A DNA stretch of 64,000 nucleotides from Terriglobia bacterium (GTDB lineage Bacteria > Acidobacteriota > Terriglobia > JAJPHL01 > JAPKYU01), in the NCBI GenBank assembly GCA_965206645.1, contig CBDBKE010000004.1, forward strand, positions 1,696,001 through 1,760,000. Reading direction: 5' to 3'. Each line of letters starts with the position of its first letter. The first letter of the stretch is position 1. The notes beneath the pieces were generated by a model. The model made no database searches and was not told where the DNA came from. It worked only from the letters and a program-made list of their open reading frames with translations. Of the stretch, positions 32,724 to 38,952 are shown one piece after another. A program made the translations under genes and the position numbers.

Positions 32724-33152
32724 TCAGGCCGGCACCCAGCCGCTGGAGGCGGCCAACGCCTCTCCCTTCCGGGGCTTGCGGGAATGCTTCAGCAGCGCCC
32801 TGCGGGTAGCGGCCGCGTCCTGCACCACTTCTTCCAACACCGTCAGGTAAGCCAGGAACCGCTCACGGCCTTGTCGGGAGAGGCGGCAAAGTGTCTGCGG
32901 GCGCCGGTTCTCAAACCGCTTCCAGACCTCGACTAGGCCCGCCTCGTACAGCACCTGCAGGTGGCGGCTGAGGTTGCCGTCGGTGAGCGCGCAGAGTTCC
33001 TTCAGGTCAGAGAACAGCACGCCGTCCGGGCGAGTGGCCAGAGTGGTCAGAATTCCCAGGCGCGCGCGTTCGTGCAGCAGCCGGTCCAAGCCTTCGTAGG
33101 CAAAGCGTCCGCCGGTCGGTTGGGTTTCAGACTGCTTCCTCTTCCGAGCCAT
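32724..33152 (-). CDS. Winged-helix transcriptional regulator (ArsR/MarR-like, HTH_34 type)
   Basis: GLDRLLHERARLGIL, FSDLKELCALTDGNLSRHL..L.EAGLV, RRPQT, GRERF..Y. Confidence 0.88.
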   Translation of the reverse strand: MARKRKQSETQPTGGRFAYEGLDRLLHERARLGILTTLATRPDGVLFSDLKELCALTDGNLSRHLQVLYEAGLVEVWKRFENRRPQTLCRLSRQGRERFLAYLTVLEEVVQDAAATRRALLKHSRKPRKGEALAASSGWVPA

Positions 33153-33756
33153 TTCTCTCCAGATTCCAGTAGAGCACCATCGCGGCTGCCAACTGGCCGA
33201 CGCCGAAGGTTGCCCCCATAACCCACGGTGCCAGCGCCTCCCGTCCGGGCAAGTAGTGCAGGATCGCGGCCCCACACACTAAGTAGTACAGGCCCACCCA
33301 GCCGATGGTTCGCGGCAGGTGACGCCGAGAGGCAAATACGCCCAGGCTGACTAGCATCGCCCACAGGCCCGGCAACAAGGCCACCAAATCGGGGTGCCGC
33401 CAAGTCAGGATCCAGGTCAGCAACGCGCCGGTCGTCAGCGAGGGCAGCAGTTGCCCCACCACGATTCGCGTGGTGGGGCGCCGGTGGGCCGAGGCACAGT
33501 TCAGATAGCCATGCAACATTTGCGCGCCAACGCCGGCCGCGCACAGCACCGCGGCCCCCACCCACAGCATGACGTACCACACAGGCTGAACCACGGGGTC
33601 GCCGGCCAACGTCGGCTGCGCCAGCGCCGCCAGCAGCGCTACTACGCCGGTGGCCGCGGCAGGCACGGCTCGGTAGCCGCGGAAGGTTTCCGCAGTCACC
33701 AGGTGCCCGCGGATCGCGCTGATCTGCTCCAGTGCCTCGTGCAGTTCCGGCGGCAT
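33127..33756 (-). CDS. Multi-pass membrane protein co-transcribed with the regulator
   Basis: EALEQISAIRGHL..AETFRGY N-terminus and about six hydrophobic helices; 3' end overlaps the regulator start. Confidence 0.8.
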   Translation of the reverse strand: MPPELHEALEQISAIRGHLVTAETFRGYRAVPAAATGVVALLAALAQPTLAGDPVVQPVWYVMLWVGAAVLCAAGVGAQMLHGYLNCASAHRRPTTRIVVGQLLPSLTTGALLTWILTWRHPDLVALLPGLWAMLVSLGVFASRRHLPRTIGWVGLYYLVCGAAILHYLPGREALAPWVMGATFGVGQLAAAMVLYWNLERNGSEEEAV

Positions 33757-33765
33757 AGCTTTATG

Positions 33766-33780
33766 CTTTGCGTCGCAAAG
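33766..33780. promoter_or_regulatory. Palindromic operator CTTTGC-N3-GCAAAG
   Basis: Perfect 6-3-6 inverted repeat about 10 bp upstream of the membrane gene start, plus an extra CAAAGT half-site 10 bp further. Confidence 0.6.
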
Positions 33781-33897
33781 TATAACAAAGTATATGCAGG
33801 CTGCCTTCCGTATGCAAGCAGAAATTCTTGCCCGCCTGCGGGCAGGCCGCTGGGTTTTGCTATCATGAACGGGAGCGCGCCTGGGAGCCGCCGCCGC

Positions 33898-35298
33898 ATG
33901 AGTCCGGAAGTCGTTCTCATTTCGACCTACGAGCTGGGGCGCCAGCCCTTCGGGCTGGCTTCGCCCGCCGCCTGGCTGCGACAGGCCGGGGCTTCGGTCA
34001 CCTGCCTGGACCTTTCCCGGGAGAAGCTGCGGGAAGAGCCGGTGCGCTCGGCCAACCTGGTGGCGTTCTATGTCCCCATGCACACGGCGACTCGCATCGC
34101 GGCGCGGGCCGTGGAAACCGTCCGTCGCCTGAACCCGCGCGCGCACCTCTGCTTCTACGGTCTCTACGCGCCGCTCAATGAGCGCTACCTTCGTGGGCTG
34201 GGCGCGGAAACGATTCTGGGGGGCGAGTTCGAACAGGGTATGGTTCGGATCCTCGAGCAGTTGCCGGACGGAACCCATGCGCAGAAAGAGCGTCTAGTCT
34301 CGCTGGCGCGCCAAACTTTCCTCGTGCCGGACCGCAGCGGCCTGCCCGGGTTGTCCTCCTACGCGCAGCTAAGGGACGGCCAGGGGCGGCTGCGCACGGT
34401 CGGTTACACCGAGGCCACTCGCGGTTGCAAGCACCTGTGCCGCCACTGCCCCGTTGTTCCGGTCTACAACGGCGCCTTCCGGGTGGTGCAACGGGACGTG
34501 GTGCTGGAGGACATTCGCCGCCAGGTCGCGGCGGGCGCCGAACACATCACCTTCGGCGACCCCGATTTCCTAAACGGCGTCAGGCACTCGCTGGAAATTG
34601 TGCGAACTCTACACCGCGAGTTTCCCCGGCTCACCTACGATGTGACCACCAAGGTGGAGCACCTGCGGAAGCACGCCGCCGCGCTGCCGGTTCTGGCCGA
34701 AACCGGCTGCCAGTTTGTTACCAGCGCCGTCGAATCGGTGGACGACCGCGTATTGCAGCTGCTGGACAAGGGGCACACCCGCGCCGATTTGTACGACGTC
34801 GTGGCGCTATGCCGGCGCACAGGCCTGGTGCTGGCGCCGACCTTTGTCGCCTTTACGCCGTGGATCACGCTGCGAGGCTACTGCGACCTACTGGCGGTAC
34901 TGGACGAGCTGGAGCTGGTCGAGCAGGTGGCGCCCGTCCAGCTCGCCATCCGGCTGCTGATCCCCACCGGTTCACGGCTGCTGGAATTGGAGGAGGTGCG
35001 GCAGCTCGTCGCTGGCGGCTTCGATGAGGCCGCGTTGAGTTACCGCTGGAAGCATCCCGACCTGCGGGTGGACCGCATGTGTGATCAAGTCCAGCGGGCA
35101 GTCTGGCAGGCTGAAAAGCAGGGTCGCTCGCGGCGGGCAATTTTCTCCCAAGTCTGGGAGCTGGCGCATCAGGCGGCAGGCATTTCTACGCAGGCGCTGC
35201 AAGTTCCCGACCCCTACCAGCGCACTACCGTGCCCTACCTGAACGAGCCCTGGTATTGTTGAGCCGAACCCACCGAAGAGCAGTTTGCTCTTGTATGA
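33898..35298 (+). CDS. CUAEP-tail radical SAM selenoprotein (UGA-encoded Sec at 35260-35262)
   Basis: EATRGCKHLCRHCP CxxxCxxC, HITFGDPDF; read-through gives EPWYC-U-AEPTEEQFALV*; SECIS-like hairpin downstream. Confidence 0.88.
35276..35292 (+). promoter_or_regulatory. Putative bacterial SECIS element (apical stem-loop)
   Basis: AAGAGCA-GTT-TGCTCTT, a perfect 7-bp stem; the loop starts with GU 20 nt after the UGA. Confidence 0.7.
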
Positions 35299-35321
35299 AG
35301 CAAGCCTTGTATGAAGCAAGC
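35290..35321. repeat. 16-bp exact tandem duplication CTTGTATGAAGCAAGC x2
   Basis: Directly visible at the rSAM/ATP-grasp junction. Confidence 0.9.
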
Positions 35322-36624
35322 AATGACGCCCCGGCTCCTTCTTCTCGCCACCACCACCGGCTACCAGACGCAAGCGTTTGCCGAAGCGGCGCGTGGCCTG
35401 GGGTTGGAGGTGGTGTTAGGCACCGACCGCTGCCACGTGCTGGAAGACCCCTGGCAGGACGCTGCGCTGCCTCTGCGCTTTGAAGATCCTGCGCACGCGG
35501 CCGATGAGATTTGCCACTACGCCCGCGAGCATCCCATCCAGGCTATGACGGCGGTGGGCGACAAGCCCACAGTGACGGCTGCGGTAGCCTGCCGTTCACT
35601 GGGAATTACCTGGCACAGCCCCGAGGGGGCCGAAGCCTGCCACAACAAGTTCCTTGCCCGGCAGCGGTTCGAGGAAGCGGGGCTGAACGTGCCTGCCTAT
35701 GCCCGCTATTCCACTCGCGACGGGCCGCCTCCGACCGACGGCGGGAGCGTGTCTTGCGTCCCGTTCCCCTGCGTGCTGAAGCCGGTGTCGCTAGCCGCCA
35801 GCCGGGGCGTCATTCGCGCTGACAACCCGGAGCAATTCGCGGCCGCCTTCCACCGCATCGCCGCGCTGCTGGCTAGCCCCGAAATCCAGGTGAAGAAGGA
35901 GGCTGAGACCGAGCAGATTCTGGTGGAGGAGTTTGTTCCCGGGTCCGAATTTGCGGTGGAAGGGCTCATGTGGCGGGGCAGGCTGCGGGTTCTGGCCATC
36001 TTCGACAAGCCTGACCCGTTGGAAGGTCCCTACTTCGAAGAGACAATTTACGTGACGCCCTCGCGACTGCCTGTGAGCGAGCAGGCGGCCCTGACCGAGT
36101 GTTTGGAGCGTGCTGTGCGCGCTCTGGGGCTGTTCCACGGCCCCGTGCACGCCGAGTTCCGCTTGAATGACGGCGGCCCTTGGGTGTTGGATGTGGCTGC
36201 GCGGCCCATCGGCGGCCTTTGCTCGCGCGCCCTCCGCTTCGGTGCGGGTATGTCTCTGGAGGAGCTGGTCATTCTCAATGCCCTGGGCCGGCGCAATGCC
36301 CTGAGCCAGCGCAATGCCCGGGGCGAGTCGCTCGACGGGATTGCCCGGGAAAGTGCAGCGGCAGGGGTCATGATGATTCCCATCCCCGGCGCCGGGGTTT
36401 TCGAGGGAGTGGAAGGGGTGGAAGACGCCTTGCGGGTGCCAGGCGTCGAAGAGGTCCACGTTACCGCCAAGCTGCACCAGAAGCTGGTGCCTTGGCCGGA
36501 GGGCGCCAGCTATCCGGGCTTCCTGTTTGCCCGCGCTTCCTCCCCAGCGGCCGTGGAGGAGGCGTTGCGCGAAGCTCACCGGCGCCTGCGCTTCCGAATC
36601 TCGCCGATGCTCGCGGTTGTCTAA
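35311..36624 (+). CDS. ATP-grasp domain ligase
   Basis: CHNKFLARQRF, PCVLKPVSLAASRGVIR, ILVEEFVPGSEFAVEG, FDKPDPLEGPYFEETIYVTPS, GPVHAEFR; start 35311 or 35323. Confidence 0.9.
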   Translation: MKQAMTPRLLLLATTTGYQTQAFAEAARGLGLEVVLGTDRCHVLEDPWQDAALPLRFEDPAHAADEICHYAREHPIQAMTAVGDKPTVTAAVACRSLGITWHSPEGAEACHNKFLARQRFEEAGLNVPAYARYSTRDGPPPTDGGSVSCVPFPCVLKPVSLAASRGVIRADNPEQFAAAFHRIAALLASPEIQVKKEAETEQILVEEFVPGSEFAVEGLMWRGRLRVLAIFDKPDPLEGPYFEETIYVTPSRLPVSEQAALTECLERAVRALGLFHGPVHAEFRLNDGGPWVLDVAARPIGGLCSRALRFGAGMSLEELVILNALGRRNALSQRNARGESLDGIARESAAAGVMMIPIPGAGVFEGVEGVEDALRVPGVEEVHVTAKLHQKLVPWPEGASYPGFLFARASSPAAVEEALREAHRRLRFRISPMLAVV

Positions 36625-36914: not shown

Positions 36915-37090
36915 TGGCTGTGTGCCATTCGCTACGGCCTTTCCTGAGGGTTCCGGAAATCAGTATTTCCGTGGCGGCTCGGGGACCGGCCGCCCACTCC
37001 AAGCTAGCATAGATCGGGACCGGGCGCCACATCGTTCCCCCTTTGTCGTTTCGTTGTATTCGTTGTATTCTTGGTATTCAGGAGAGGAGG

Positions 37091-37426
37091 ATGAACGTGT
37101 CAGAACTGGCCGCAAAGACTTGCATACCGTGTCGCGGCGGAGTCCCGCCGCTCAAAGGGCCGGAACTAGAGGGGCTCAACCGGCAGGTCCCTGGCTGGAA
37201 TGTCGTTGAGGAGCACCACCTCGAGAAAACCTTCCGCTTCCCTGATTTCCGAAGAGCCCTGGAGTTTGTGAATCGGGTAGGAAACCTGGCCGAAGAGCAG
37301 GGGCATCACCCGGATATCTTTCTCGCCTGGGGAAAGGTGGGGGTCAAGATCTGGACGCACAAGATTGACGGGCTGACGGAAAGCGATTTCATTCTGGCCG
37401 CCAAGATTGACGCACTGAGCTCGTAA
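37091..37426 (+). CDS. Pterin-4-alpha-carbinolamine dehydratase
   Basis: CIPCRGG, FRFPDF, AEEQGHHPDI, WTHKIDGLTESDFILAAKID; strong GGAGG RBS. Confidence 0.93.
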   Translation: MNVSELAAKTCIPCRGGVPPLKGPELEGLNRQVPGWNVVEEHHLEKTFRFPDFRRALEFVNRVGNLAEEQGHHPDIFLAWGKVGVKIWTHKIDGLTESDFILAAKIDALSS

Positions 37427-37457: not shown

Positions 37458-38171
37458 ATGAGCGACAGAAAAGAACTGGAGCTTCGCTTCTGTGAGTAGC
37501 TTGGCTTGACCAGGAGGCCGGTGGCAGTGAGCTTTCTCCCCGAGGAACCGACTCAGCTTCCCAGGTTCAGCGGGAGCGAGCCCTCCGGGTGCAGCTTCTG
37601 GCGCCTGGCTGCTGAGGGGCGCACCTTTCACACGGTTCCGGCGGACCACTACAACTGTGCGGTGGGCAGCTACACCCATAACGTCGAGCTTCCGCCGGAG
37701 CGCGCCCGGGAACTGGACGAGACGCTGGGGCTGATGACCTCGGTGGGCTACCTGAGCCTGGACGAGATTCCAAGGATTCCGCGTTTACCCCGGCCGCCGG
37801 CGGCGGTCCTCTATTCGCCGCTGGCCGACGCGCCTATGGCCCCGCAGGTGGTCCTGTTCGCCTGCCGGCCGGCGGCCGCCATGTTGCTCAGCGAGGCGGC
37901 GGCACGCGCCGGTGCGAACTCTTCGCTGCCGGCGCTGGGACGGCCCACGTGCATGGCCCTGCCTGCCGCGCTTTCCGCTGCCGGCGCCGTCACCAGTTTG
38001 GGTTGCATCGGGAACCGGGTATACACGGGGTTGAGCGAAGATGAGTTGTACGTGGTGATTCCCGGTCCCGCCCTGCCGGGTGTAGCCGAGGCCCTGGAAA
38101 CCATCGTCTCCGCCAACCGAAATCTTGCCGCCTATGCCGAGAATCGCCGCCGCGCGCTGGCCTCCGAATAA
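37458..38171 (+). pseudogene. DUF169-family protein with an in-frame TAG at codon 14 (37497-37499)
   Basis: AGGAGG RBS, then MSDRKELELRFCE*LGLTRRPVAVSF; SGCSFW, HYNCAVG, RPTC, SLGCIGNRVYT motifs. Confidence 0.75.
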
Positions 38172-38433: not shown

Positions 38434-38952
38434 ATGAGCGAGCTGCACATTCCTGTTCTGGTTCTCAATGCCACCTACGAGCCCATCAACGTCTGTGCCG
38501 CTCGCCGGGCCGTGGTGCTGATCCTGAAAGGGGTTGCCTCCGCTGAGGAGGAAAGCCGGGCTTACTTTCACTCCCCGTCGCGCAGGGTACGTGTGCCCTC
38601 CGTGATCCGTCTATTGGGATACCGGCGCATCCCTTTCCAGGGCCGGGCTCTGTCACGCAAGAACATCCTGATGCGGGACCGCAACACCTGCCAGTTCTGC
38701 GGCGGGGCCTTTCCGGCCTCGGAATTGACGCTGGACCACATTGTTCCGCGCTCGCGGGGCGGCGATTCCAGTTGGGAGAATCTGGTGGCCTGCTGCCATC
38801 CCTGCAACAACCAGAAAGGTGACCGCCTGCCGGAGGAAGCCGGCATGAGGCTCATCGGCCGACCACGCTCCTTCACCCTGCATACCAGCCGCCACCTGAT
38901 GCACCAGATGGGCAGGTCCGACGCCGCCTGGCGGAAGTACTTGTTCTTCTGA
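38434..38952 (+). CDS. HNH endonuclease (McrA-like, stand-alone)
   Basis: [63 protein letters not shown]. Confidence 0.92.

What the first reader, a model, noticed from the sequence alone, without database searches (positions are those of the whole stretch)
33898..35298. Hidden selenoprotein: radical SAM enzyme with a Cys-Sec (CUAEP) tail and SECIS-like hairpin
Seen: the ORF track stops at EPWYC*, but the sequence reads tgg tat tgt TGA gcc gaa ccc acc gaa gag cag ttt gct ctt gta TGA, i.e. WYC-U-AEPTEEQFALV. A perfect 7-bp hairpin (AAGAGCA-GTT-TGCTCTT) has a GU-starting loop 20 nt after the UGA, which fits bacterial SECIS geometry. The second TGA (35296-98) forms an ATGA overlap with a copy of the next gene's start sequence, as expected of the true stop. 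Known, from memory: a CUAEP/CCAEP-tail radical SAM family exists and is related to ArsL, the arsinothricin enzyme with a Cys-rich tail. Inference: standard gene callers truncate the Cys-Sec pair, which is probably a metalloid-binding site.
Basis: partly seen in the sequence, partly recalled or inferred. Interest (0 to 1): 0.9.

Follow-up and report, generated by a model that had tools for sequence, protein, structure and literature searches.

The report
Known Cys-Sec-tail radical SAM selenoprotein
This gene encodes a radical SAM enzyme whose in-frame TGA is read as selenocysteine, a family already catalogued but of unknown function, and here it proves to travel with an amino-acid ligase gene.

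Summary
The ORF 33898-35262 continues through TGA 35260-35262 to a second TGA at 35296-35298. Read that way, it scores 638.6 bits against NCBIfam NF040546, 'CUAEP/CCAEP-tail radical SAM (seleno)protein' (cut-off 500), aligned almost end to end. All 80 related loci carry Cys-Sec or Cys-Cys at this site: 66 have TGA and 14 have TGC/TGT, and the AEP tail behind it is conserved. A hairpin about 13 nt after the UGA is about 90% paired with compensatory changes in Sec loci. In Cys loci it is only 44-50% paired, which is chance level. The genome has selA, selB, selD and tRNA-Sec. Public gene calls stop at the UGA in 119 of the 120 best hits. The family and its CU motif are already in NCBIfam and in one preprint, so the core claim is not new.

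- A Met-ligase-like ATP-grasp gene is adjacent in 57 of 80 loci and co-occurs genome-wide.
- DUF169 is a second, rarer neighbour.
- Two loci carry a CpaM and HgcAB-like cassette next to the rSAM.

ArsL-like transfer to a metalloid held on the Cys-Sec tail is the leading guess for function, but it is untested.

The parts
33898..35298 (+). CDS of the CUAEP-tail radical SAM selenoprotein, 466 residues plus stop, with an in-frame UGA at codon 455
   Evidence: Translation with TGA=U. NF040546 scores 638.6 bits against cut-off 500, residues 5-464 on profile 1-467 of 468. The closest public proteins are 454 aa, which fits this start and a call that stops at the UGA. An in-frame ATG at 33865 is an unexamined alternative start.
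34426..34449 (+). CxxxCxxC motif (C177, C181, C184) for the radical SAM [4Fe-4S] cluster
   Evidence: Invariant in 45 of 45 aligned proteins. Pfam Radical_SAM covers residues 173-310.
34708..34710 (+). Codon of Cys271, the only other invariant Cys outside the cluster motif and the tail
   Evidence: Invariant column C271 in alignment A5. A role as a third ligand is inference only.
35257..35262 (+). Cys454-Sec455 dipeptide (TGT TGA)
   Evidence: All 80 related loci have Cys followed by TGA (66) or TGC/TGT (14) here.
35276..35292 (+). SECIS hairpin: a 6-7 bp stem beginning 13 nt after the UGA, with a G and a U in the apical loop
   Evidence: Short-tail Sec loci including the window: 89.8% of cells paired, 11 cells with compensatory changes, 0 of 500 shuffles as high. 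Cys loci: 50.0% and 43.9% paired. The selD UGA of the same genome has the same geometry.
35296..35298 (+). True stop codon (TGA)
   Evidence: The closest short-tail relative apart from L022, L100, ends ...ALV at TAG at the same position, and other relatives end in TAA or TAG.
35290..35321 (+). Exact 16-nt tandem duplication spanning the stop of the rSAM gene and the start region of the next gene
   Evidence: Read directly. It is present with 2 substitutions in the second copy in the 93%-identical relative L022, where the second-copy ATG reads AAG.
35323..36624 (+). L-amino-acid-ligase-type ATP-grasp gene, the conserved partner. The ATG at 35323 is conserved with L022; the ATG at 35311 is an alternative start.
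   Evidence: Pfam ATP-grasp_4, LAL_C2 and ATPgrasp_N. Best solved relative is BL00235 (3vot), E 5.2e-42. Adjacent in 57 of 80 loci. Genome-wide co-occurrence.
37506..38171 (+). DUF169 gene, a second and rarer associated gene
   Evidence: Pfam DUF169, E 1.3e-22. Found in 11 of 80 related loci, directly after the rSAM in 7 of them.
32724..33275 (-). Divergent winged-helix (HTH_34, ArsR/SmtB-like) regulator gene; its link to the rSAM gene is uncertain
   Evidence: Pfam HTH_34, E 8e-21. NCBIfam ArsR/SmtB scores 30.5 bits, below cut-off 55. Conserved next to the rSAM only in L022, 1 of 80 loci.

Best explanation
The gene 33898-35298 encodes a 466-residue member of the catalogued family NF040546, the CUAEP/CCAEP-tail radical SAM (seleno)protein. 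Codon 455 (UGA) is decoded as selenocysteine. SelB and Sec-tRNA are recruited by a short hairpin that starts 13 nt after the UGA and lies inside the codons of the tail. Translation ends at the next TGA, 35296.

The protein has an N-terminal Rossmann-like (B12-binding-like) domain, a canonical CxxxCxxC radical SAM core, and a flexible C-terminal tail carrying Cys454-Sec455.

Inferred, not shown: like its nearest characterised relative ArsL, the enzyme holds a soft metalloid or chalcogen substrate on the Cys-Sec tail, possibly with Cys271. It transfers a SAM-derived group to that substrate, most likely 3-amino-3-carboxypropyl, which would give a methionine-like amino acid. The co-inherited ATP-grasp, an L-amino-acid ligase whose nearest solved relative makes Met-Gly and Met-Met, then ligates that amino acid into a dipeptide.

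My odds: family membership and Sec decoding about 0.95. A tail that binds a metalloid or chalcogen substrate about 0.5. ArsL-type carboxypropyl transfer followed by ligation about 0.25.
For: Family:
- NF040546 scores 638.6 bits against a cut-off of 500, aligned over residues 5-464 of 466.

Recoding:
- All 80 related loci have Cys-[Sec/Cys] at this site, 66 with TGA and 14 with TGC/TGT.
- The tail AEP..Q.. stays in frame while third codon positions vary.
- Hairpin pairing is 89.5% in 43 long-tail Sec loci and 89.8% in 22 short-tail Sec sequences. There are 14 and 11 compensatory cells, and 0 of 500 shuffles reach these values.
- In 14 Cys loci pairing is 50.0% and 43.9%, no better than shuffles or slid registers.
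- Machinery: selA 553.5 bits, selB 309.5 bits (342.8 with its second piece), selD 354.1 bits with its own in-frame TGA, and tRNA-Sec 78.5 bits with anticodon TCA.
- The selD UGA is followed by a 7-bp stem at the same distance with a GGU loop.
- On a tree of 80 proteins the Sec/Cys state needs 8 changes, at least 5 of them forced by well-supported branches.

Function:
- ArsL model NF040542 scores 288.4 bits over residues 6-400. The next radical SAM model scores 47.8 bits.
- ArsL's Cys-rich tail binds As(III) and is needed for product formation (bioRxiv 10.1101/2024.02.01.577332, passages; bioRxiv 10.64898/2026.04.29.721666, sections 6 and 11).
- The ATP-grasp is adjacent in 57 of 80 loci.
- It lies elsewhere in the genome in 7 of 10 genomes tested where it is not adjacent.
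- It is present in 5 of 5 further genomes that have the rSAM, and found in 0 of 10 near-complete genomes that lack it.
- Its best solved relative is the ligase BL00235, E 5.2e-42. Table 2 of PMC6920838 lists Met-Gly and Met-Met as its products (passages).
Against: - There is no protein-level or expression evidence. Sec insertion rests on comparative sequence analysis only.
- The window's hairpin alone is not significant, and no Rfam family matches it.
- I split the Sec loci into two groups by the register that paired better. That inflates the percentage paired, though not the contrast with Cys loci, which were tested in both registers.
- Against ArsL-like chemistry: the ArsL model scores below its cut-off of 450. 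The alignment stops before ArsL's RCCLKC tail (profile 409 of 423). The tail here has two chalcogen residues rather than three and sits about 54 residues further from the core.
- No ars gene lies among the neighbouring ORFs scanned with Pfam.
- Three genomes with the rSAM lack a close ATP-grasp orthologue (L058, L060, L093).
- The nearest structural neighbours include cobalamin-dependent methylases, so the chemistry could differ.
Confidence: 0.9

Rival explanations
1. The TGA at 35260 is a real stop. The protein ends at Cys454, and the conserved sequence behind it is an RNA or DNA element, such as a coupling or attenuator hairpin, for the downstream ATP-grasp gene.
For: Gene callers end the protein there in 119 of the 120 best public hits. 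The hairpin alone is not significant. The stretch lies directly before the next gene.
Against: Fourteen of 80 homologues have a Cys codon at this position and read on through the same AEP..Q tail. Third codon positions of the tail vary while the residues stay the same. The hairpin is lost exactly where TGA is replaced by a Cys codon. The tail is kept in loci with no ATP-grasp downstream. The curated family model includes the tail.
Confidence: 0.03
2. [quoted passage not shown] The mobile Cys-Sec tail would be a redox or hydrogen-atom-donating centre (a selenenylsulfide, as in the Gly-Cys-Sec-Gly tail of thioredoxin reductase), not a metalloid-binding site.
For: The CxxxCxxC core is canonical. 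The top structural neighbour, AprD4 (TMq 0.69), and MiaB are 5'-dA-generating enzymes. A vicinal Cys-Sec pair on a flexible C-terminal tail is the thioredoxin reductase arrangement (recalled, not from a call). The tail has lower model confidence, which fits mobility.
Against: By sequence the closest family by far is ArsL (288 bits against 48 or less for all others), and ArsL's tail binds substrate. A co-inherited amino-acid ligase fits an amino-acid product better than a redox role. The only paper passage on the family groups its CU motif with HgcA and organometallic systems.
Confidence: 0.3
3. It is the same selenoprotein, but a cobalamin-dependent (class B-like) radical SAM enzyme that methylates a substrate held on the tail.
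For: There is a weak Pfam B12-binding match at residues 7-111 (E 0.005, below threshold). Structural neighbours include TsrM, OxsB, TokK and CysS. In 2 of 80 loci the gene sits beside a corrinoid-protein methyltransferase (CpaM) and an HgcAB-like fusion protein.
Against: The B12 match is below Pfam's cut-off. The best structural neighbour, AprD4, is to my recollection cobalamin-independent. The ArsL passages and sections I read mention no cobalamin requirement. The corrinoid cassette is rare (2 of 80) and has no above-cut-off match in this genome.
Confidence: 0.1

Closest known systems
NCBIfam NF040546, CUAEP/CCAEP-tail radical SAM (seleno)protein
   Same: The whole protein, including the Cys-Sec-Ala-Glu-Pro tail, scores above the curated cut-off. 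Haft and Gwadz (bioRxiv 10.1101/2022.07.06.499078, one passage read) list the family as an uncharacterised CU-motif selenoprotein.
   Different: Nothing differs at the level of the family; this is one more member. The partner genes and the SECIS comparison reported here do not occur in that paper: a text search of it for 'ATP-grasp' and 'DUF169' gave 0 occurrences.
ArsL (NF040542, RCCLKC-tail radical SAM), arsinothricin biosynthesis
   Same: It is the nearest characterised family: 288.4 bits over residues 6-400. It shares the domain order, the canonical CxxxCxxC motif and a C-terminal tail with vicinal chalcogen residues. ArsL's tail binds As(III), and the enzyme transfers SAM's 3-amino-3-carboxypropyl group.
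   Different: The score is below ArsL's cut-off of 450. The tail motif is CUAEP rather than RCCLKC, with two rather than three thiol or selenol residues, and sits about 54 residues beyond the aligned core. There is no arsM or other ars gene beside it. The partner is an amino-acid ligase. The substrate and the SAM cleavage mode are unknown.
Bacterial SECIS elements such as E. coli fdhF (properties recalled, not from a call)
   Same: A short hairpin lies a fixed distance after the UGA, inside the coding sequence, with a conserved G and U in the apical loop. The selD of the same genome shows the same spacing.
   Different: The hairpin occurs in two registers, a 4-nt AGUU loop in long-tail forms and a 5-nt loop in short-tail forms. 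No Rfam family matches it.
L-amino acid ligase BL00235 (PDB 3vot) and BacD
   Same: The partner ATP-grasp matches BL00235 over residues 43-418 (E 5.2e-42) and BacD at about 4e-11. It has the LAL C-terminal domain. BL00235 makes Met-Gly and Met-Met (PMC6920838, Table 2).
   Different: No NCBIfam model reaches its cut-off. The substrates are unknown. In the genomes tested it is found only where the rSAM is present.
CU motifs of HgcA, the SAO-system proteins and the thioredoxin reductase tail
   Same: All have vicinal Cys-Sec. [quoted passage not shown]
   Different: The folds are unrelated. The likeness lies in the motif only.

Membership tests
NF040546 CUAEP/CCAEP-tail radical SAM (seleno)protein | Score above the curated whole-protein cut-off (500 bits) | tested here: met
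   638.6 bits, E 5.6e-192. 632 bits in the six-frame search of the genome.
NF040546 CUAEP/CCAEP-tail radical SAM (seleno)protein | C-terminal Cys-(Sec/Cys)-Ala-Glu-Pro tail aligned to the end of the model | tested here: met
   Residues 5-464 align to profile 1-467 of 468. The tail reads WYC-U-AEP.
NF040546 CUAEP/CCAEP-tail radical SAM (seleno)protein | Radical SAM CxxxCxxC cluster motif | tested here: met
   C177, C181 and C184 are invariant in 45 of 45 sequences. Pfam PF04055 scores 47.5 bits.
Bacterial selenoprotein | Cys-containing orthologues at the UGA position and a conserved reading frame beyond it | tested here: met
   14 of 80 loci have TGC/TGT and 66 of 80 have TGA. The tail is conserved in both.
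Bacterial selenoprotein | SECIS hairpin at a fixed short distance after the UGA, supported by covariation | tested here: met
   89.5% and 89.8% paired with compensatory changes in Sec loci, against 50.0% and 43.9% in Cys loci.
Bacterial selenoprotein | selA, selB, selD and tRNA-Sec in the genome | tested here: met
   All four are above cut-off in a genome that is 97.9% complete. ARAGORN finds tRNA-SeC with anticodon tca.
Bacterial selenoprotein | Selenium actually incorporated in the protein | not testable with these tools
   This needs 75Se labelling or mass spectrometry of the C-terminal peptide.
ArsL (NF040542) | Score above the curated cut-off (450 bits) | tested here: not met
   288.4 bits. 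287.8 bits in the genome search, with no other candidate in the genome.
ArsL (NF040542) | RCCLKC tail with three As(III)-binding cysteines | tested here: not met
   The alignment ends at profile position 409 of 423. The tail here is CUAEP.
ArsL (NF040542) | Neighbourhood with arsM and other ars genes | tested here: not met
   Pfam scans of 20 neighbouring ORFs show no arsenite methyltransferase or other ars gene. Only a weak ArsR/SmtB-like regulator is present.
ArsL (NF040542) | Cleaves SAM to methylthioadenosine and transfers the 3-amino-3-carboxypropyl group | not testable with these tools
   This needs an in vitro assay.
L-amino acid ligase (the partner gene) | ATP-grasp fold with LAL N- and C-terminal domains and similarity to characterised ligases | tested here: met
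   PF13535 119.8 bits, PF18603 54.5 bits, PF18130 34.7 bits. 3vot E 5.2e-42.

The most novel reading that the evidence does not exclude
The Cys-Sec-tail radical SAM enzyme and its co-inherited L-amino-acid ligase form a two-step pathway. It was found in about one in six of the sampled genomes of the window's own phylum (68 of 401); by the record titles of the related loci that phylum is probably Acidobacteriota. In the first step an ArsL-like transfer of SAM's 3-amino-3-carboxypropyl group to a metalloid or chalcogen (As, Sb, Se or Te) held on the selenol-thiol tail gives a methionine-like organo-element amino acid. In the second step the ligase turns that amino acid into a dipeptide. This would be a new class of organometalloid natural product or detoxification route. 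DUF169, and in some lineages the CpaM and HgcAB-like cassette, would be accessory parts.
Probability: 0.2. Interest if true: 0.8.

Novelty: new member of a known kind. Interest (0 to 1): 0.4.

Why it matters
The core claim, a hidden selenoprotein, is right but already catalogued. Its practical value is as an annotation correction: public gene calls for this family almost always stop at the UGA and drop the tail that probably carries the chemistry.

The family's function is unknown, and its only characterised relative, ArsL, makes the carbon-arsenic bond of an antibiotic. The ligase that is co-inherited with it, and the occasional DUF169, CpaM and HgcAB-like neighbours, give concrete candidates for reconstitution. 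If the ArsL-like reading holds, a sizeable share of the genomes sampled from this phylum, most of whose closest relatives in public records are Acidobacteriota/Terriglobia metagenome bins, would make an unrecognised organo-element amino acid or dipeptide.

Tried and rejected
- Folding the window's hairpin alone gave nothing significant (z -0.42).
- An Rfam scan of 35100-35500 at a permissive threshold gave only two chance-level matches, mir-639 and TarB.
- Other neighbours as functional partners:
  - Aconitase occurs in 40 loci, and G6PD, glucokinase and a HAD hydrolase also recur. All are housekeeping genes, which I read as shared gene order within one clade.
  - Several conserved 'ORFs' without Pfam hits are probably antisense shadows in this G+C-rich DNA.
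  - UbiD, shikimate kinase, LytB, FGGY kinase, ferredoxin and the ABC transporters of the window are not conserved beside the gene: 0-7 of 80 loci.
- The divergent ArsR-like regulator is shared only with L022.
- No ArsL or HgcAB-like fusion above cut-off was found in the own genome.
- A sequence search of solved structures with the rSAM gave only one weak hit, 9ccb at 6e-5. No ArsL or family structure appeared there or among the listed Foldseek matches.
Whether the two proteins touch is open.
- I did not obtain an ArsL sequence. The comparison with ArsL therefore rests on the profile score and alignment limits, not on a residue-by-residue alignment.
- No expression data were sought.
Full report
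OBSERVATION

The ORF that a standard caller ends at TGA 35260-35262 (...EPWYC) continues in frame as AEPTEEQFALV to a second TGA at 35296-35298. A 7-bp inverted repeat (35276-35282 and 35286-35292, loop GTT) places a G 20 nt after the UGA.

The 'copy of the next gene's start' is an exact 16-nt tandem duplication, 35290-35305 and 35306-35321. Its first copy holds the ATGA overlap with the stop.

On their own these features do not beat chance. The 66-nt stretch folds no better than its shuffles (z -0.42; 64 of 200 shuffles fold as well). Rfam has no match worth naming.

FAMILY

Read through the UGA, the 466-residue protein scores 638.6 bits against NCBIfam NF040546, 'CUAEP/CCAEP-tail radical SAM (seleno)protein'. 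That model is an equivalog with a cut-off of 500. Residues 5-464 align to profile positions 1-467 of 468, so the tail is part of the match.

The second-best family is ArsL (NF040542) at 288.4 bits over residues 6-400, below its cut-off of 450. Every other radical SAM model scores 47.8 bits or less. Pfam sees the Radical_SAM domain at residues 173-310 and a sub-threshold B12-binding match at 7-111.

The family is in print once in the library searched. A full-text search for CUAEP or CCAEP returned one relevant paper, Haft and Gwadz, bioRxiv 10.1101/2022.07.06.499078. I read one passage of it. It lists NF040546 as an uncharacterised protein with the rare CU motif.

EVIDENCE THAT THE UGA IS SELENOCYSTEINE

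- Related loci. The best 80 loci were kept. They are mostly Acidobacteriota/Terriglobia metagenome bins, with a few from NC10/Methylomirabilota, Chloroflexota, Nonomuraea and others.
- The Cys-[Sec/Cys] site. Seventy-eight of the 80 loci match W[YF]C-[U/C]-AEP: 64 with TGA and 14 with TGC or TGT. The other two also have TGA. L036 ends at the contig edge after CUAE, and L090 reads CUVEP. So 66 of 80 are Sec forms and 14 of 80 are Cys forms.
- Coding signature. Behind the site the tail AEP(T)xxQ stays in frame. Third codon positions vary while the residues are kept.
- The true stop. Among the tails listed, some end in TAA or TAG and others in TGA. L100 ends ...ALV at TAG at the window's position. 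The second TGA is therefore the true stop.
- Tree. On a maximum-likelihood tree of 80 proteins the Sec/Cys state needs 8 changes, at least 5 of them forced by well-supported branches. The rows were the window and 79 loci; L023 dropped out of my ORF clustering. Repeated interchange is the usual pattern for a selenoprotein family.

THE SECIS HAIRPIN

In every Sec locus a hairpin begins 12-13 nt after the UGA, inside the tail codons. It comes in two registers.
- Long-tail forms, 43 loci: a 4-nt AGUU loop.
- Short-tail forms, 22 sequences including the window: a 5-nt loop. In the window one more A-U pair can close it to GUU.

Pair counts:
- Long-tail Sec loci: 89.5% of 294 cells paired, 14 cells with changes on both sides, 0 of 500 shuffles as high.
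- Short-tail Sec sequences: 89.8% of 147 cells paired, 11 such cells, 0 of 500 shuffles as high.
- Both fall to 33-62% when the partner columns are slid.
- The 14 Cys loci: 50.0% and 43.9% paired in the two registers, no better than shuffles or slides.

One caveat applies. I assigned each Sec locus to the register that paired better, which raises the percentage paired. The compensatory changes and the contrast with the Cys loci do not depend on that choice.

THE SEC MACHINERY

The genome is 97.9% complete in 4 contigs. It has:
- selA, 553.5 bits;
- selB, 309.5 bits, or 342.8 with its second piece;
- selD, 354.1 bits, itself with one in-frame TGA;
- tRNA-Sec, 78.5 bits, with anticodon TCA.

The selD UGA is followed by a 7-bp stem at the same distance with a GGU loop. 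The organism's SelB therefore already reads this geometry.

PUBLIC ANNOTATION

Of the 120 best public proteins, 119 cover only 96-97% of the read-through protein. That is the coverage expected if they end at the Cys before the UGA (454 of 466 residues), and the closest ones are 454 aa long. One covers 99%. [quoted passage not shown] JGI calls many of them YgiQ.

In a sample of 401 genomes of the phylum, 68 have a match above the cut-off. Fifty-nine of those have one in-frame TGA. Of the 9 without, 2 are cut off before the tail. The denominator includes three genomes flagged as unpublished (G152, G049, G024). None of them has an above-cut-off match.

PROTEIN ANATOMY

In an alignment of 45 family members the invariant cysteines are C177, C181 and C184 (cluster motif), C271, C454 and position 455.

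An AlphaFold2 model built on that alignment is confident: mean pLDDT 90.3, pTM 0.90. Confidence is lower from residue 431 to the C-terminus (10-residue block means 65, 73, 64 and 42), which fits a mobile tail.

Foldseek places the model with enzymes that combine a Rossmann-like N-terminal domain with a radical SAM core. These are AprD4 (TMq 0.69), TsrM, OxsB, MiaB, MgmA, CysS and TokK. By sequence only one solved structure matches, and weakly: 9ccb at 6e-5.

GENOMIC CONTEXT

The gene directly downstream is an ATP-grasp protein with L-amino-acid-ligase N- and C-terminal domains. Its best solved relative is the ligase BL00235 (3vot, E 5.2e-42), followed by BacD. Table 2 of PMC6920838 lists Met-Gly and Met-Met as the products of BL00235 (passages read).

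Evidence that the ligase travels with the rSAM:
- It lies within 6 kb of the rSAM in 57 of 80 loci, in most of them directly downstream on the same strand.
- Of the 23 loci without it, 7 have less than 1.3 kb of DNA downstream.
- I tested 10 of the remaining 16 genomes. Seven have a full-length orthologue (48-58% identity) elsewhere. Three do not: L058, L060 and L093.
- I then chose genomes only by whether they have the rSAM. The ligase was found in 5 of 5 further carriers, in three of them unlinked to the rSAM gene. It was found in 0 of 10 non-carriers that are 95-100% complete.
- These samples are small and the genomes are related, but the pattern points to a functional pair.

No other neighbour is conserved except through shared gene order within a clade.

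A second, rarer associate is DUF169, at 37506-38171 in the window. It occurs in 11 of 80 loci. In 7 of them it directly follows the rSAM gene, and in 4 of those 7 it lies between the rSAM and the ligase.

In two loci (L060, L089) the order is rSAM, DUF169, CpaM, HgcAB-like fusion protein. In L060, CpaM (NF043040) scores 244.9 bits against a cut-off of 180, and the fusion protein (NF043039) scores 332.2 against 285. The L089 genes were placed in the same clusters by BLAST. A preprint on marine hgcA genes draws DUF169 and a UbiE-type methyltransferase beside Nitrospina hgcA (bioRxiv 10.1101/648329, one figure legend read). This genome has no HgcAB-like fusion above the cut-off.

THE 16-NT DUPLICATION

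The 93%-identical relative L022 has the same duplication with two substitutions in the second copy, one of which turns that copy's ATG into AAG. The duplication is therefore inherited, not an assembly error. The ligase most likely starts at the ATG at 35323, which both genomes keep.

HOW IT MOST LIKELY WORKS

Shown by comparative evidence: the UGA is decoded as Sec through a SECIS hairpin within the tail codons. The product is a radical SAM enzyme with a Cys-Sec pair on a flexible C-terminal tail.

Inferred by analogy: ArsL, the only characterised relative, binds As(III) on its C-terminal cysteines. It cleaves SAM to methylthioadenosine and a 3-amino-3-carboxypropyl species that ends up on arsenic, and removing the tail abolishes product formation but not SAM cleavage. 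I took this from passages of 10.1101/2024.02.01.577332 and from the abstract and sections 6 and 11 of 10.64898/2026.04.29.721666.

A selenol-thiol pair, perhaps with Cys271, would be a good ligand for a soft metalloid or chalcogen. A 3-amino-3-carboxypropyl adduct of such an element would be a methionine look-alike. A ligase related to a Met-accepting enzyme is what one would expect to process it.

Rival readings are a redox or hydrogen-atom-donor tail on a canonical enzyme, and a cobalamin-dependent methylation. Nothing here excludes either of them.

VERDICT

It is not new in kind: the family, its Sec/Cys tail and its relation to ArsL-type enzymes are already curated.

My searches of the paper library found none of these in print. 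Supplementary files could not be read.

Noticed in passing
window 35290-35321; L022 7393-7424: An exact 16-nt tandem duplication spans the rSAM stop and the start region of the ligase gene. The 93%-identical relative L022 shares it with 2 substitutions, one of which removes the second-copy ATG. It shifted the ancestral ATGA stop/start overlap. Each copy can form a small 4-5 bp hairpin.
   Followed up: partly
own genome G000:C2:761488-762411 (locus L010, TGA at locus position 1531): selD of this genome is itself a selenoprotein: one in-frame TGA at codon 11 of the match. A 7-bp stem with a GGU loop follows it at the same distance as in the rSAM gene.
   Followed up: partly
L060 7600-10276; L089 7521-10252: In two relatives the rSAM gene is followed by DUF169, a corrinoid-protein-associated methyltransferase (CpaM) and an HgcAB-like fusion protein. 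The CpaM and fusion genes of L060 are above their NCBIfam cut-offs; the L089 genes were assigned by BLAST clustering only. The genome holding L060, tested, lacks a close orthologue of the ligase. L089's genome was not tested.
   Followed up: partly
related loci L022-L101, tails after the Sec/Cys codon: The family has two tail classes. Short tails have about 10-16 residues after Sec (AEPTEEQ...). Long tails have about 20-40 residues and usually end in F-V or F-I. Each class has its own SECIS register. All 10 genomes tested because they lack an adjacent ligase have short-tail forms.
   Followed up: partly
L048 6270-7571; L079 7546-8829: In two closely related loci a phage-integrase-family gene sits directly downstream of the rSAM gene, where the ligase normally lies. 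No ligase is found within 6 kb.
   Followed up: no
window 37043-37426 and 38434-38952: A pterin-4a-carbinolamine dehydratase gene lies between the ligase and DUF169, and is shared with 3 of 80 loci. An HNH endonuclease gene follows DUF169.
   Followed up: no
window 33276-33897: About 620 nt separate the divergent ArsR-like regulator ORF from the rSAM start. An in-frame ATG at 33865 is a possible earlier start. The region was not analysed for promoters or operators.
   Followed up: no
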